Positions 2,901 to 32,900 of a stretch of 64,000 nucleotides of DNA are shown here, one piece after another (positions within the stretch are counted from its first letter, which is position 1; the number at the start of each line of letters is the position of its first letter). The notes beneath the pieces were generated by a model. That model made no database searches, was not told the DNA's origin, and saw nothing but the letters and a program-made list of their open reading frames with translations. The stretch is from Euglena gracilis (lineage: Eukaryota): positions 38,115,703 through 38,179,702 of the forward strand of contig CP154954.1 in NCBI GenBank assembly GCA_039621445.1, in the 5' to 3' direction. Both the position numbers and the translations under genes were made by a program.

Positions 2901-5900
2901 CCCCGCAGGGATGGGCGGATCCGGCAGGGGGTGCCCCCCCCCCCCGTTCCTAACCCCCGCGTCCGCATACGTTGGGGTGTTGGGGGCCACTCGTCGGGTG
3001 TGCACTGCACGTCATCACTGCTCCCCGAATGACAACGAAGCGCAATGCCCACAAATGCCGCAAATGCCATCTCTGACCCTCATACAAATGCACCAGGGAC
3101 GGCGTGGAGCAGCCGAAGGGAGACGAAGAAATCAAAATTGACTGTTCGGAAAAGAACAGCGAAGATGAAAAAAAACCCAGTAAGTCACTTGGATGGGGAG
3201 GGGCAGTTGATCAACCACTCAGTCAGTTAGCCCACCCTGGGGACGAAATGGGGGGAACTGGGTGCAGAACGTCAGAAACACTTTTCGGTTGGAACAACGA
3301 TGACCGGTATCCTGCTGCAGCATTCTAAGTGATGCCGGGAATTCCAGTGGGAGAGAGGTTTGAGACGGGTGAGACGCCCCTTCCCCCGCGTGCTCCCCGC
3401 CAGGCGTGAGCGCCTGCCGCAGCGCCTCCTCCTCCAGCAGCAGGCGGCGCTGGTCCGCCACGCAGCGGAGGTCCGCCCTCAGGTCGTCCAGCGCGGCGGT
3501 GCGGTGCTGCAGCTCCGCGGCGAGGGCCCGGACCTCCGGCAGCGCGTCGGCGGGGGCCGGGCCGAACTGCCGCGCCCACCGTGGGGGGGGGGGTTGCTTG
3601 GGGCCCAGGCTTGGCCCAGCCAAAGCGGGCTGGCTTCGGTTTGGCGCCCACGGAAGAGTAAGCTCTTCTTGGGCATCCCACACCACGCTGGAGCTGGTTC
3701 TTCGACACAGGAGCAGAACCGAGCAGACCTGCGCAATTTGCTGGGGGAGGGGCAGATGACGAGCCTTAGGTGGATTATTCCCAGTTGGTGTGCATGTTCC
3801 TCGGAAAGAATTTGGATTTCAACAGACAAAAATGCGTAAGGGGGAGCAAGCCGAAAGCTTTTTTGCTGCGGAGAGGGGGGAATGAAAATATGTTGGCTGT
3901 GGTGTGCACAATATGCGAATTTGATGAAACCCTTGTTTCCCCAGCCTGGCAACACCCCTGTCCCCTGGGCTCTGGAGTTCAGTGTTCAGCCCAGGGTGGG
4001 GGTGGCAGAGCCGGCAGGGGCGTAGGGGCGGAGACGGCTCACCTCTTGCGCCAGCACGCAGATCTGCTCCTGGCGGCGGGTGTCGAAGGCGCGGACCACC
4101 TCCATCTCCGCCTCCAGGCGCTGGAGTTCCTGTGGCGGGGAGATACTGTCCCACTCTCCCCTTGCCGCATGGCACTTGGGGGCTGTTTCACAGCGACATC
4201 ACCCGAAAAATACAGAGCTGCATCCTTCCAACAATGCGTTTGTTATTTGGTGGGTTTTTTGGGCATATTGAGGGGGTATCCGGTTGCACATGGGCAATTA
4301 ATTAACCTTCCAAATAACCAAATACAAAGCCCCCTCTCTGGGGAAGTGCGACGGGAAATTTACCATTTTGTGAAGGTTTCAGGAATCATTTCAGGCAATG
4401 AGCTTGACAATGTTGGTATAAAAAAAAATGGTGTGCAATATCTCTTAAAAATGGCAGAATTTGGGCAAAAAAATGATTGCGAAATTCTGTTCGGAAACCC
4501 AAATGCTTTGTCACAGAAATTTGATTTCATGTCCAACTATAACCCCTCAAATATCAACCCCTCCGAGAGCTTTGAAATCCTGGGCTGATGCCGCTTTGTC
4601 TTCACCAGATTTTTACCAAGACCCTTGCTCTGGGGCCACATACACACACGCACACACATATGTATCCCCTCCCCACATCCCAGGCACAGCACCGTAAAAA
4701 CACACACACACACACCTTGCATAAGGGGGAACTGCAAACAACCACCAAATGCAAACAACTCTTATGAGAGATGAAATTTTCATTCAAAAAATGTGCTTTG
4801 AACGGCCAAATTTTCGACATAAAGCAAACTACATATTACAACTCCACATATAAAAAGCAACCCCAAACCCAAATATGTACAACAAACCCAAATGAACGCT
4901 GTTATTCGGGGTGGGTACAGGAAGAATAATGTTTTGATGGTTTGACAATCAGGTGTGTCTGTGTTGTGCTGTGCTGTGGTGCTCAAACCCCCACGTCCTC
5001 TTTGTCGACCATTCAACGCGGCGGTGTGATGGACACTCAGGCCAAAGCATGGACGGAGCACACCTGCTCCTTCTCCGCCAGGTCCCTCTCCGTTGGGGCA
5101 ATGGATCGCTCGCCGTCCATCAGCACCCAGTCGGGCGATGGGCCACGAGGGGAAGCGGTGGCGGCAGGCGCCCCATCCAGAAACAGACACACCTTGAATC
5201 CCTTGCTGGGTCTCGGAACCTCCAGCCGGCCACAGGGAGCGCCATTGCACACACACACACACACACACACACACACACACACACACACACACACACACAC
5301 ACACACACACACATCGGGATGGGGGGCTGGGCGGGGGGCAGGAGGCGGGGCTGGCCAGCCCCGGCGTACTGGTAGACCCGCCTTACCGTCTGCACCGTCA
5401 CCTGCTGCTGGATGGAGGTGGCCTCGCGGCCGCCGTGGCTCGCTGGGCTGGGGCTGGCGGAGGGGGAGGGGGGCGGCAGCGGGGCTGGCCCGGGGGCAGG
5501 CCGCGGCGGGCCTGGAAGGCGAATGTGAACTCCCCCGGGGGAACGACCCGACTTTCTTTGCCGGGTCCCCTATTGTTGGTCCTCGTCCGAGCGCCATCGG
5601 GGGGGGGGGGGTGTCCCACCACAACGCCACCGAGTCACATTCGTACATTCCCGCCCCCCGCGTCACACACGCCGGCCACCCCACGCCGCGCCCTGCGCAG
5701 CGCCGCCGAGGCGGGGCAGGACGCGGTCGAGGTGGGCCTGCAGGGCGTCCGCCCGGTCCCGCTCCGCGTCCGCGGCGGCCTCCCACGCCGTGCCGCGCTG
5801 CACCGCGTCCTGCAGCTGCCGCTCCAGGTCCGCGTGGCGCTCCCGCCGGGCGTCCAGCTCCACCCGCGTCTCCTCCAGCTGCCGCTCCATTGCCGCCAGG

Positions 5901-29900: not shown

Positions 29901-32900
29901 CCCGCCGCCCCTGCACTCACAGAGACCCGTCCGTGCAGAATTGTCACGAGTCGGTGACACAAAAAACCTGCAGCAATTCTGCCAAAATGAACACTGCCCC
30001 GGGGAAGAGGGGCGCAGCGCGGGCCCGGCGTCTCAAAGGGGGTCATGGAGAGGCGGGGCTCCGTGCCGGCGTCGGAGGGCCGGCCCAGCGCGAAGCCGTC
30101 GCCGAGGGACTCGCGGGGCAGCGCCTCCAGCCGGGCCTCCAGCTCCGCCACCACCTGCCGGTACTGCCGCTCCCGCTCGGCCTCGCGCCGCGGCTCGGCC
30201 TTCGCACCGCACCGCACCGTGACCCGGGAGGGGGTTCGGGCACCGGACCCCGGACATCAACCCCGGGCAGCGGGGGGGGGGGGGGGCGGGCCTCGGCAGT
30301 GAGCCGCGGCGTGGCCCTGCCAGTCCCTCTCGGATCGCTCGCTGGCCTCCAGCCGGCGGCGGAGGTCCGTGAGCTCCGCGCTTGGGGGCAGGGCCAGCGG
30401 GGCCGGGGACAGGGGCGGAGGGGGGGGGGGGGGGGGGGGGGGGGGGGCGGGGCGGGGGGGGGGGGGGGGGGGGGGGGGGAGGGGGCGGGGCGGGGGTGGG
30501 AGGGGGTGGGAGGTCCGGGGGGTCGCCTGGCTGGCCCTGCCCAGGGGGCCCATCGGGTCGTCCGGCACGTAGGACAGCCCGGCACGGTCCCAGGGGTCGA
30601 CGGTGGTGGGGTGGGAGACCCGCCGCACATACCGGCAAACGAGGCACAAACCGGTGGCGGTTCCCCGACGGGTCGTTGGGTGAGGGGAGTCGATCCAAAT
30701 GGGGGGCCCCAATTTCCGGGGGGTCCGTCTCGCCATGCAATCGTGCAACTGTGCAGCCATTTTCTGCATTTGGGGAATCGTTCAGTAAGAAGATGTCGAT
30801 CAATGCAAGAACAAACGGGCAAAAAATGAAATCATTCTCCGTCGGCCATTGGAGAGCAGTGAGAACCAATTTGAGAAGGCCCCCTTAAGTCTCAGTCCAC
30901 CCTCAGATAAAGCTCTGACAAATGGTTGCGAAATATTCTTTGCTTTGAGCCTTTTCCTATTCTTGTTCTTGCCTATTTGCCGAATGTCCATCTCTGTTCC
31001 AATGAAACCACGCCATGTAAAACAACGGGACGATATCCGACGCCGGGGGCAGAGGATCCCCCAGCGTGCTCCGTCCGGACGGTGCGGACGTAGTGCTCCT
31101 CCGTCACCTCGATGTCGTCCCCCGCCAGCCCCGCCAGCGCCTCGTCCCGCAGCCCGGCGTGGGTCTGCAGGTGCTGCAGCAGCGCCTGGGACGTGGCCAG
31201 CTGAGGGCTGGCCCGTCCCTCCTTCCGGTCAGTTTGAGGCAGCAAAAAGCAGTGTTGGCCACCCGAGTGGAGCGGTGGTTGACACCAAACCTGAGCCGCT
31301 GCAGACGGCTGTACGGGAAGACCTGGTGGGGGTGGTCGACCCTCCCCACCCACCACAGCGCTTTCACGGATTTTTTTACCAAATTTCTCACGGCGCATTT
31401 GTCGCCGGGAAAAATTTTGGGGTCGAAAATTGGTGCTCCCAGAAACACGGGAGGTGGTGGGTGGGGGAGGGTCGACCCCCACCCACCATGCAGGGGGTGG
31501 GGGTGGTCGCCCACCACCCCCACCACCCTGGCTGCTTGGCCGATTCCCATTCTGTCCCTGGCTGCCGGCCAGGCTACACTGCTTACCCCGGTCACATCAG
31601 CTGCAAGCTGTCATTTTCGGGACAGTTCTTGTGACAGCTCGACGGTCAGGGAGGGGCAAATGCCGGGGAATCAGGTTTCCGCCTAAAACATTATGCCCCA
31701 GGATTCCAATCTTTTAGAAGCGTGGTTTGTGTGGAACAGCTTGGGTTGGAATAACCGTGTTGCTGTCAAAAGGCCACGTTAAAAGGCCGCCCTGAAAACT
31801 GTGTCCTCCGGCCCCTGCGGCTCAACGCACTTCGCCGCGGCTGGGGTGGGCCAGGGTGGGCATGCAGCTGGCCCAGCTCCTCGCCCTGCGCCTGCAGCTG
31901 GGTGTAGCTGGCCTGCAGCTCGTCGCTCAGCTCCATCACCTTCGCCGTCAGCTGGTGGCAGGTCTGCGGGCATGACCCAACGTACGGCGGGGGGCAACTT
32001 CTTTTCCAGCCAGCCACACACACACACACACACACACACACACACACACACACACACACTCCACTGGCCCTTTGGCTTTGGTGGAGAGCACGGGTACTGT
32101 GGCTGCGGTCGTTTGCATACTTCTTTATTTTGATTGCCATAATACCCACAATGCAACCGGGAGCATTTTTTCAGGGTGTGAAGACCACAACTTTTTTTGG
32201 AATATGCCATCCGACCCTGGACTGGAAAATCATTACAATTTAGCTCAAGAAACATCGAGATTTTCACGCGATGCTTTTCACATTTTCTCACCCCAAATTG
32301 ATTTTGTTGCTCTGTACAACGAGTCAGGATATATTTTGGGGGAGATACGTGAGGCGGGTTGGACATTGCAGGCTTCGCTTTGGAGACAAGATAACGTCTG
32401 CTTTCTGTGCCTGGTCCTTGGGCCACCTCGGCCCCGGTGTCTTTCCGGCCGCCGCCGCAGGTCGGCGGGCGAGGCGTACCTCGTCCCGCATCTTGAACAG
32501 GCGGTACAGCGCCTGGAGCACGTCCTCCTGCCCCGCGGCGGTGGCGGGGGCGTGGAGGCTCTGGCAGAGCCGCTGGAACTGCGGCGGAGCGGGGCGACGG
32601 GGGAAGGTGGGGGGAATGAGGAAAGGCGGATGGGCGGTGCGTGTGGCGGAAGCTCGATTGATGGGGAAAGCCAGATGGCCAAGACAGGAAATACGTTTGT
32701 GCGGTGGCTGATACGGCAAGTGTGCAACAAAAGGTGTCATCATGTGAACGTCCGTTGCCCCTTCATTGCGGCTCCGATTCCATCTGTCTGACGTGAGGAA
32801 ACGAATGGCAGACCTCGGCTGCGCCACCAGCACCGGAAGGAGCACGGTCTGGGGGTGGGGGTGTGGCAGTGCCGAGGAGGGGGCTCCGATGGCGACGTTG

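What the first reader, a model, noticed from the sequence alone, without database searches (positions are those of the whole stretch)
5492..30542. Nineteen more non-GT-AG introns obeying one structural rule (3 nt - stem ... stem - 5 nt)
Seen: minus-strand introns 5492-5698, 5892-6314, 10074-10596, 11430-11740, 13526-13924, 14914-15284, 16407-16586, 18564-19486, 19641-19953, 20660-21260, 21431-21984, 22123-22684, 22751-23176, 23331-24348, 24536-24818, 24917-25465, 26224-27446, 27580-29572 and 30384-30542. Each starts with a purine, has a terminal stem from +4/-6 (e.g. CAGGGCCAGC/GCTGGCCCTG, CACCGCG/CGCGGTG), and joins flanking coiled-coil exons in frame. Lengths run from 159 to 1993 nt. The class is known in euglenids, but this density in one gene is striking. 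Caveat: I chose the boundaries by hand using frame as a guide, in GC-rich sequence.
Basis: partly seen in the sequence, partly recalled or inferred. Interest (0 to 1): 0.75.

Follow-up and report, generated by a model that had tools for sequence, protein, structure and literature searches.

The report
Known Euglena-type nonconventional introns, mostly correct
The nineteen stretches are real examples of the odd, hairpin-ended introns that Euglena-like algae use in most of their genes, so they are ordinary for this organism, and one of them was drawn three bases off at each end.

Summary
The sequence features are as described. All 19 minus-strand intervals start with a purine, are followed by an exon that starts with a purine, and pair for 3-10 Watson-Crick bp from +4/-6. 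They join the best-scoring reading frames. Chance does not explain this: random pairs average 0.36 bp against 4.9, and only the 3/5 register stands out.

15 of 19 fit the published Euglena nonconventional-intron code, 5'-N3CDG...CH'GN5-6|R (PMC12501133), against about 0.19 expected per intron under hand choice.

Spliced contigs from two RNA-type runs give:
- Both ends fixed for #8, #9 and #10.
- One end fixed for #4, #5, #11, #13, #14 and #18.
- An exact 356-nt exon sum that matches #11-#14.
- #15 contradicted. The real intron is 24533-24821 (289 nt), which still obeys the 3/5 rule with a 6-bp stem.
- No junction evidence for #1-3, #6, #7, #16, #17 and #19.

The gene is a long coiled-coil gene with roughly 50 introns. 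The density is not striking: nonconventional introns are 57-72% of all Euglena introns. This is already known and of low interest.

The parts
3405..33914 (-). Approximate span of the host gene: a long coiled-coil (A/E/L/Q/R-rich) protein gene with roughly 50 introns
   Evidence: Unconstrained codon-score and intron dynamic programme. The span and the count of 51 are rough. Eight RNA contig pieces share one mRNA frame. No Pfam family in 10 long minus-strand ORFs.
5492..5698 (-). #1 nonconventional intron, GCG-CAG...CTG-CCCCC|g, 4-bp stem
   Evidence: Outside the stretch laid with reads, so there is no RNA test.
5892..6314 (-). #2 nonconventional intron, GCC-CAG...CTG-GCGGC|a, 5-bp stem, not slidable
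   Evidence: (0 of 208 alternatives as good). No RNA test.
10074..10596 (-). #3 nonconventional intron, CGG...CCG variant, 6-bp stem. Holds a nested element with inverted ends.
   Evidence: No RNA test.
11430..11740 (-). #4 nonconventional intron, CAG...CTG, 4-bp stem
   Evidence: An RNA contig piece ends at 11428, which is the claimed 3' junction slid by the 1 ambiguous base (table 3).
13526..13924 (-). #5 nonconventional intron, CTG...CAG configuration, 4-bp stem
   Evidence: RNA pieces of X1 and X7 begin at 13525, the claimed 3' junction (table 8). Present in the best length-constrained models.
14914..15284 (-). #6 nonconventional intron, CTG...CAG, 4-bp stem (6 with G-U), not slidable
   Evidence: Kept in 2 of 3 length-constrained S5 models; the run that assumes an upper piece end at 14900 replaces it with 14902-15305. 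An RNA piece covering 14806-14845 is compatible. The junctions are not shown directly.
16407..16586 (-). #7 nonconventional intron, CAGGGGGG/CCCCCCTG, 8-bp stem
   Evidence: 0 of 204 alternatives as good. An RNA piece around 16633 is compatible. The junctions are not shown directly.
18564..19486 (-). #8 nonconventional intron, CAG...CTG, 3-bp stem
   Evidence: Both junctions are shown. Pieces 19486-19638 and 18383-18562 are contiguous in contig X1 record 1 (3058|3059), which equals the claim slid by 1 base. RNA depth inside is 0.26 against DNA depth 43.9.
19641..19953 (-). #9 nonconventional intron, CAG...CTG, 5-bp stem
   Evidence: Both junctions are shown. Pieces 19952-20131 and 19486-19638 are contiguous in the contig (2905|2906), which equals the claim slid by 2 bases.
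20660..21260 (-). #10 intron with a CAC...GTG 7-bp stem. Its ends also read GC...AG, so it is a hybrid type.
   Evidence: The upstream piece ends at 21260. The next exon, 20531-20658, is 128 nt and equals the contig gap 2598-2725. It is the best constrained model. GC-AG ends.
20133..20531 (-). Extra nonconventional intron not in the list: GGC-CAGTG...CACTG with a 6-nt spacer
   Evidence: RNA piece ends at 20131 and 20531. Constrained model.
21431..21984 (-). #11 nonconventional intron, CGG...CCG, 4-bp stem (10 with G-U)
   Evidence: The 3' junction equals the piece end at 21429, slid by 1. The 356-nt exon sum fits, and it is in the best constrained model.
22123..22684 (-). #12 nonconventional intron, CAG...CTG, 4-bp stem
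   Evidence: Exon sum and best constrained model. The from_end value at 22717 is compatible.
22751..23176 (-). #13 nonconventional intron, CAGGCC/GGCCTG, 6-bp stem
   Evidence: The piece end at 22750 is implied by the from_end value of 34 at 22717..
23331..24348 (-). #14 nonconventional intron, CAG...CTG, 3-bp stem
   Evidence: The 5' junction equals the piece end at 24346, slid by 3. Exon sum and best constrained model.
24533..24821 (-). #15 as revised: GGC-ATGGCG...CGCCAT-GCGCC|g, 289 nt, 6-bp stem. The claimed 24536-24818 is not supported.
   Evidence: RNA pieces end at 24821 and begin at 24531 (tables 3 and 8). Stem. Found independently as alternative (-3,+3) and by the constrained model.
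24917..25465 (-). #16 candidate, CCCC/GGGG 4-bp stem, off-code. Boundaries are open.
   Evidence: The length constraint is met equally by 24904-25461 paired with 26230-27443. No junction piece was shown.
26224..27446 (-). #17 nonconventional intron, CAGGG/CCCTG, 5-bp stem. The exact boundaries are open.
27580..29572 (-). #18 intron with a CAC...GTG 5-bp stem, 1993 nt
   Evidence: The 5' junction equals the piece end at 29572, slid by 1. RNA depth is 0 in 27992-29325 against DNA depth 50-54. In the best constrained model.
30384..30542 (-). #19 nonconventional intron, 10-bp stem CAGGGCCAGC/GCTGGCCCTG around about 100 nt of poly-C
   Evidence: No junction piece was shown.

Best explanation
These are nonconventional (NC) introns of a Euglena-type euglenid. 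They sit in a long minus-strand gene for a coiled-coil protein.

How the intron works, as published:
- In the pre-mRNA the two ends of each intron base-pair. The pairing typically runs from CAG at +4..+6 to CTG at -8..-6 and extends inward.
- The helix brings the two junctions together and acts as a ruler.
- The upstream exon is released 3 nt before the helix. The downstream exon, which begins with a purine, is joined 5 (sometimes 6) nt after it.

Shown here:
- The sequence signature.
- Its non-random 3/5 register.
- Absence of the introns from RNA-type contigs at 9 of the 19 (#4, #5, #8-#11, #13, #14, #18), plus a corrected #15.

Inferred from the literature, not tested here:
- Which machinery removes these introns (unknown; presumed not the standard spliceosome).
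- Release of the intron as a circle.
- An origin from elements with inverted ends.

The short direct repeats at the junctions make 16 of 19 introns 'slidable'.
For: Signature:
- 15 of 19 fit N3-CDG...CH'G-N5|R, and 11 are exact CAG...CTG.
- The chance rate is 9.4e-4 per random pair, or about 0.19 per intron if boundaries are chosen freely within +-12 nt.
- Stem register and strength.
- 16 of 19 are slidable against 0.45 expected. The published figure for E. agilis is 84.4%.

RNA:
- One 5,092-letter contig of run X1 lies on 8 listed exon pieces whose coiled-coil frames all fall in one mRNA frame.
- Separate contigs of run X7, from another study, end at the same places in 6 of those 8 pieces.
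- Contig coordinates are contiguous across #8 and #9.
- The exon length between #10 and the next intron is exact at 128 nt.
- The 356-nt sum across #11-#14 is exact. With the piece ends fixed, the best model is the claimed set.
- The large introns #8 and #18 have RNA depth of about 0, while DNA run X20 covers them at 44-54.
- X20 DNA contigs run unbroken through #4, #5 and #15.

Literature:
- Code and its genetic tests: PMC12501133, Results.
- E. gracilis consensus CCAGG at +3..+7 and CCTG at -9..-6, mean lengths 517-539 nt, 16,151 NC introns of 28,337: PMC11170887, sections 6 and 10.
Against: - #15 as drawn is contradicted by the contig piece ends.
- Four of 19 do not carry the CDG/CH'G motif: #10 and #18 (CAC/GTG), #15, and #16 (CCC/GGG).
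- Eight (#1, #2, #3, #6, #7, #16, #17, #19) have no junction-level RNA evidence. Three lie outside the 20-kb stretch laid, and the output listed only 24 of 56,566 pieces and 15 of 360 joints.
- Runs X1 and X7 are labelled RNA only by a guess.
- The stretch 16013-18382 could not be modelled. The contig holds 419 nt there, but only about 260 nt looks coding. Either the contig is partly chimeric or some introns escape my candidate rules.
- My constrained models only allow rule-type or GT/GC-AG introns, so they cannot reveal a third kind.
- The species label is coded, so 'euglenid' rests on the intron type itself.
Confidence: 0.9

Rival explanations
1. The boundaries are artefacts of hand-picking in GC-rich DNA. 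The true introns are conventional and end at nearby GT/GC...AG sites.
For: Every one of the 19 has several frame-preserving, stop-free GT/GC-AG alternatives within +-30 nt. Stems of 3-4 bp can be found by choice: up to 9 equal alternatives per intron. #15 was indeed misplaced.
Against: No slid form of any intron except #10 has GT/GC-AG ends. The contig piece ends match the claimed junctions, not GT/GC-AG ones, at #4, #5, #8-#11, #13, #14 and #18. The corrected #15 is again a 3/5 stem intron. 15 of 19 carry the specific code, against about 3.7 expected under free choice.
Confidence: 0.04
2. The joined form is not spliced RNA. It is DNA of an intron-less retrocopy or paralogue, picked up in runs whose RNA label is only a guess.
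For: The tool marks X1-X19 as 'RNA? (a guess)'. Several contigs share short words with this gene and then run on unlike it, which suggests paralogues (tables 5 and 7).
Against: The pieces match the window with 0-2 differences per 153-186 letters. 19 runs from 8 studies hold only 13-18% of the words, as expected for exons alone, while the one DNA holder has 66%. In the DNA run's listed contigs the introns are present (table 8).
Confidence: 0.03
3. Only some of the nineteen are single introns. A few long ones, such as #3, #17 and #18, are really two or more introns with small unseen exons between them.
For: The unconstrained model breaks #3 into three pieces. Extra introns exist between listed ones: 9 of 18 gaps carry stops in all frames. 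#3 holds a nested element with inverted ends.
Against: RNA depth is 0 across the inside of #18. The length-constrained model keeps #18 whole. The split of #3 follows poly-C/G inverted repeats and gives no coding gain.
Confidence: 0.1

Closest known systems
Euglena nonconventional introns obeying the code 5'-N3CDG-/-CH'GN5-6|R(exon) (Nomura et al., PNAS 2025, PMC12501133; Results read, Discussion passages seen)
   Same: 3-nt and 5-nt spacers, CAG/CTG with its CGG-CCG and CTG-CAG variants, a purine at the start of the downstream exon, pairing that extends inward from the motif, and short direct repeats that make junctions slidable. 15 of 19 fit to the letter.
   Different: #10 and #18 (CAC/GTG), the revised #15 (ATG/CAT) and #16 (CCC/GGG) keep the geometry but not the C-D-G letters. 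The paper reports that 38.8% of NC introns fall outside its pattern, so this is within known variation.
E. gracilis 'ss-invariant' and 'ss-variant' nonconventional introns (Gao et al., BMC Genomics 2024, PMC11170887; abstract and sections 6 and 10 read)
   Same: Consensus CCAGG at +3..+7 and CCTG at -9..-6, terminal pairing, similar lengths (published means 517-539 nt; here mean 580, range 159-1993), and tandem repeats inside introns.
   Different: Nothing of substance. This is one more gene.
'Intermediate' or hybrid introns of euglenids (Milanowski et al. 2016, PMC4770533, search listing and abstract start only; 'Both' class in PMC12501133)
   Same: #10 starts GC and ends AG, yet has a 7-bp terminal stem at the 3/5 register.
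   Different: Only 1 of 19. Its GC/AG letters may be coincidental in 60% GC DNA.
Noncanonical introns of diplonemids (PMC12621601; search listing and abstract start only)
   Same: Non-GT-AG introns in another euglenozoan lineage.
   Different: Not compared here. I did not read the paper's body.

Membership tests
Euglenid nonconventional introns (published splicing code) | Borders are not GT/GC...AG | tested here: met
   18 of 19 have no GT/GC-AG form at any slide position. #10 reads GC...AG.
Euglenid nonconventional introns (published splicing code) | 3-nt spacer then C-D-G at +4..+6, pairing with C-H'-G at -8..-6, followed by a 5-6 nt spacer | tested here: met
   15 of 19, of which 11 are exact CAG...CTG, 2 CGG...CCG and 2 CTG...CAG. 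Not met by #10, #15, #16 and #18.
Euglenid nonconventional introns (published splicing code) | Purine as the first base of the downstream exon | tested here: met
19 of 19.
Euglenid nonconventional introns (published splicing code) | Base pairing of the intron ends beyond the trinucleotide, specific to each intron | tested here: met
   Stems are >=4 bp in 16 of 19. Cognate ends beat non-cognate ends, with 0 of 5000 permutations reaching the observed mean. Per-intron z-scores are modest (mean -1.45).
Euglenid nonconventional introns (published splicing code) | Actually absent from mature RNA at those junctions | tested here: inconclusive
   Both ends are shown for #8, #9 and #10. One end is shown for #4, #5, #11, #13, #14 and #18. 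#11-#14 fit an exact exon sum. #15 is contradicted and corrected. 8 of 19 could not be checked.
Euglenid nonconventional introns (published splicing code) | Host is a euglenid | not testable with these tools
   Run labels are coded and no genome is held. No Rfam hit in the window. 'Euglenid' is inferred from the intron type.
Euglenid nonconventional introns (published splicing code) | Excised as circular RNA, by machinery other than the standard spliceosome | not tested
   Known only from the literature as cited in PMC12501133's Discussion.
Conventional spliceosomal introns | GT/GC at the 5' end and AG at the 3' end at the junctions used in RNA | tested here: not met
   The RNA-fixed junctions of #8 and #9 and the revised #15 have no GT/GC-AG form. 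#10 is the one exception.

The most novel reading that the evidence does not exclude
Geometry, not the CAG/CTG letters, may be what the unknown machinery reads. #10 (CACCGCG/CGCGGTG) and the corrected #15 (ATGGCG/CGCCAT) are removed in RNA at exactly 3 nt before and 5 nt after a perfect 6-7 bp helix that lacks the C-D-G motif. In every intron here, both the first intron base and the first downstream exon base are purines.

That would fit a helix-measuring endonuclease-ligase that cuts 5' of a purine on both strands. A long helix would compensate for a missing motif. This goes further than the 2025 code, where changes in CAG/CTG abolished splicing of the test intron.
Probability: 0.2. Interest if true: 0.45.

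Novelty: already known. Interest (0 to 1): 0.15.

Why it matters
It matters little for discovery. The intron class, its 3-nt/5-nt helix rule, the purine at the exon start, the sliding junctions and the genome-wide abundance were all published for Euglena in 2024-2025.

It has some practical value:
- A tool-less reader can place such introns correctly in raw sequence. 9 of the 10 introns that could be checked at a junction were right up to equivalent sliding.
- The error made at #15 is one that the rule itself corrects.
- The two RNA-supported off-code stems (#10 and the revised #15) are ready-made natural test cases for the part of the code still unexplained, the roughly 39% of nonconventional introns outside the published motif.

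Tried and rejected
- Whole genome: none is held.
- Protein database search with exon 29573-29752, longer proteins: 567 candidates, none scored. No transcript-derived protein was available to fix junctions.
- Metagenome contig scan with the exon between #1 and #2: 597 pattern matches, none related.
- Earlier notes of this scan: none.
- Rfam on the whole window: 0 hits.
- Pfam on 10 long minus-strand ORFs: 0 families.
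- No RNA holder is listed as RNA on record. The RNA-type runs are guesses.
- The unconstrained gene model recovered 7 of 19 introns exactly (#4, #5, #6, #7, #9, #10, #13) and placed near-miss alternatives for the rest. It is too loose in GC-rich DNA to settle boundaries.
- Segment 16013-18382 could not be solved under the contig's 419-nt length. There is no single 218-nt exon, only about 260 nt of coding-like sequence, and the many candidate donors for the acceptor at 16672 do not fit the piece ends. In 2 of the 5 length-constrained runs of this segment #7 was dropped. I draw no conclusion from that.
- The apparent 2.5-kb periodicity suggested by joints 13405->15904 and 15989->18490 is not a DNA-level tandem duplication. 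Self-BLAST finds only microsatellites and three short dispersed repeats.
- A contig that leaves the gene at 26176 continues into sequence absent from the window. I ignored it as a paralogue or chimera.

Full report
**What was claimed**

Each was said to start with a purine, to carry a terminal stem from +4/-6, and to join coiled-coil exons in frame.

**Is it in the sequence?**

Yes. I read all 19 with their flanks.
- All begin with a purine (16 G, 3 A), and all are followed by an exon that begins with a purine.
- Contiguous Watson-Crick stems from +4/-6 are 3 to 10 bp (4,5,6,4,4,4,8,3,5,7,4,4,6,3,3,4,5,5,10). Both quoted examples are present.
- Each junction joins the best codon-scoring frame on both sides. 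17 of 19 have coiled-coil-like sequence on both sides. #1 leads into a P/S-rich tail, and #19 follows a segment that is not coiled coil.
- Nine of the 18 gaps between the listed introns carry stops in every frame. More introns therefore lie between them, in line with the title 'nineteen more'.

**Is it more than chance?**

- Random pairs of the same lengths on the same strand give a mean stem of 0.36 bp, with P(>=3 bp)=0.020 and P(>=5 bp)=0.0017.
- On a grid of spacers, only the register 3/5 and the inner positions of the same helix stand out: 4.9 bp against about 0.1-1.5 elsewhere. The mirror register 5/3 gives 0.6, so the signal also has the polarity of the minus strand.
- Cognate ends pair better than non-cognate ends of the same set, -26.4 against -20.9 kcal/mol, and 0 of 5000 permutations reach the observed mean. 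Windows 60 nt inside the intron give -10.05.
- The per-intron z against mononucleotide shuffles is only -1.45 on average, because the ends are G/C-rich.
For stems of 5 bp or more there are almost none. For most of the 3-4 bp stems (#1, #5, #6, #8, #11, #12, #14, #15) there are 1-9; #4 and #16 have none. Those cases needed independent evidence.
- 15 of 19 carry the specific published motif, against about 0.19 expected per intron under free choice.

**Independent evidence from RNA**

One search found 19 runs from 8 studies that hold 13-18% of the words of 19400-27600. That share is what exons alone would give. One DNA run holds 66%.

I laid two of the RNA-type runs (X1, X7), one raw RNA run (X21) and the DNA run (X20) on 10650-30649. 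That stretch covers #4 to #19. The output is heavily truncated: 24 of 56,566 pieces and 15 of 360 joints are shown. It still gives the following.
- A 5,092-letter X1 contig lies on the minus strand in pieces 29572-29752, 24346-24531, 21260-21429, 19952-20131, 19486-19638, 18383-18562, 15847-16012 and 13352-13525.
- Separate X7 contigs end at the same places in six of these.
- The coiled-coil frame of all eight pieces falls in one frame of the contig.
- The aligner gives ambiguous bases to the upstream exon. With the slide ranges, this lets piece ends be compared with the claims.

Results per intron:
- #8 and #9 are crossed directly. The contig coordinates are contiguous at 3058|3059 and 2905|2906, and the offsets of 1 and 2 bases are equivalent slides.
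- #10: the upstream piece ends at 21260. The next exon starts at 20531 (from the distance-to-end values at 20589 and 20590). The contig has exactly 128 letters for it. So the exon is 20531-20658 and #10 is confirmed at both ends. A further intron, 20133-20531, appears.
- #11-#14: the piece ends at 21429, 22750 and 24346 match #11 (3' end), #13 (3' end) and #14 (5' end). The contig holds exactly 356 letters between 24346 and 21429, which is what the four claimed introns leave. With only the piece ends and the length imposed, the best model among 28,000-58,000 candidate introns is exactly the claimed four.
- #4 (piece end 11428), #5 (13525) and #18 (29572) each have one junction fixed.
- RNA depth is 0.26 inside #8 and 0 inside #18, while the DNA run covers them at 44-54. 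DNA contigs run unbroken through #4, #5 and #15.
- #15 is contradicted. The pieces end at 24821 and begin at 24531, which gives an intron of 289 nt. In rule form this is 24533-24821: GGC-ATGGCG...CGCCAT-GCGCC, then g, a perfect 6-bp stem at 3/5. The claimed 24536-24818 is 3 nt short at each end. Its own stem was only 3 bp.
- #16 and #17 are open. The contig length is met by the claimed pair or by 24904-25461 with 26230-27443. In either case two extra introns are needed, 25953-26074 and a GT-AG intron at 25591-25911.
- #6 is kept in 2 of 3 constrained models of its segment and #7 in 3 of 5. Both are compatible with piece ends, but their junctions are not shown.
- #1-#3 lie outside the laid stretch, and no piece was listed for #19.

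**What I could not solve**

The contig has 419 letters between 18383 and 16012, but I can find only about 260 nt of coding-like sequence there. Either the contig is partly chimeric among similar exons, or some introns there fall outside my candidate rules. My models admit only rule-type or GT/GC-AG introns, so they cannot reveal another kind.

**What it is**

It is a long coiled-coil gene on the minus strand. A rough model places it at about 33.9 kb to 3.4 kb with about 51 introns. No Pfam domain was found in ten long ORFs. The introns are overwhelmingly of the nonconventional type, with a few conventional ones, for example an AG acceptor at 16013 before a pyrimidine-initial exon.

**How it works**

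That study reports the following (PMC12501133, Results read):
- Changing the 3-nt spacer abolishes splicing.
- The 5-nt spacer tolerates +1.
- CGG-CCG, CGG-CTG and CTG-CAG variants work.
- Pairing beyond the motif is needed.
- 84.4% of introns are 'slidable' through short direct repeats.

Here 16 of 19 are slidable, against 0.45 by chance. For E. gracilis the consensus CCAGG at +3..+7 and CCTG at -9..-6, the terminal pairing and mean lengths of 517-539 nt are published (PMC11170887, sections 6 and 10).

The removing machinery is unknown. Circular excision and an origin from elements with inverted ends are proposals I saw only as passages in the Discussion of PMC12501133. The 2018 paper on order of removal I saw as an abstract only. 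I tested none of these steps.

**Density**

The density is not striking. E. agilis has 703,976 introns in 55,727 genes, and 71.8% of 649,158 are nonconventional. In E. gracilis 16,151 of 28,337 are. A gene of this length filled with them is expected.

**Novelty**

This is already known. What remains of mild interest is that #10 (CAC/GTG, 7 bp) and the corrected #15 (ATG/CAT, 6 bp) are supported by RNA and keep the 3/5 geometry without the C-D-G letters. They belong to the 38.8% of nonconventional introns that the published pattern does not cover.

They may already list this gene's introns.

Noticed in passing
window 10203-10562 (inside intron #3); related copy at 23998-24211 (inside intron #14): A nested element with perfect 25-nt inverted ends (10206-10230 against 10535-10559) and an internal thrice-repeated motif. 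A 216-nt stretch of it recurs at 80.6% identity in another intron. It looks like a small inverted-repeat mobile element sitting inside nonconventional introns.
   Followed up: partly
window 30412-30510: Intron #19 is little more than its 10-bp terminal stem around about 100 nt of poly-C (poly-G on the plus strand).
   Followed up: partly
window 13985-14651, 15319-15985, 16653-17986, 23323-24656, 26658-27324: Word depth in the DNA run is 5,000-172,000 against about 25-50 elsewhere, and it is also high in the RNA-type runs. These are very high-copy repeats (partly homopolymer G/C runs) inside the introns of this gene. Raw RNA reads there end in long G runs.
   Followed up: no
window 18104-18193 against 19016-19107; 26706-26862 against 31403-31561: Two more short dispersed repeats (84% identity) shared between introns of the same gene.
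   Followed up: no
window 5248-5313, 6966-7064, 7630-7896, 9590-9643, 19843-19908, 32015-32059: Microsatellites ((CA)n, (AC)n, (AAT)89, (TG)n) lie in the intronic parts of the gene. This is in line with the tandem-repeat content reported for E. gracilis introns.
   Followed up: no
window 5380-5390: A textbook conventional donor (cagacg|GTAAGG) follows the P/S-rich exon downstream of #1, so the gene mixes conventional and nonconventional introns.
   Followed up: no
window 48758-49662, 51569-52483, 34241-34515, 42561-42865: Outside the gene there is a 900-nt GT/GGGT-rich array (GC skew 0.47), a 163-nt satellite in 5.7 copies, a 270-nt A-rich tract and (TATG)76.
   Followed up: no
window 16013-18382: The RNA-type contig holds 419 letters for this interval, but only about 260 nt of coding-like sequence is visible. 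The cause is unexplained: a chimeric contig, exonised repeat sequence, or introns of another kind.
   Followed up: partly
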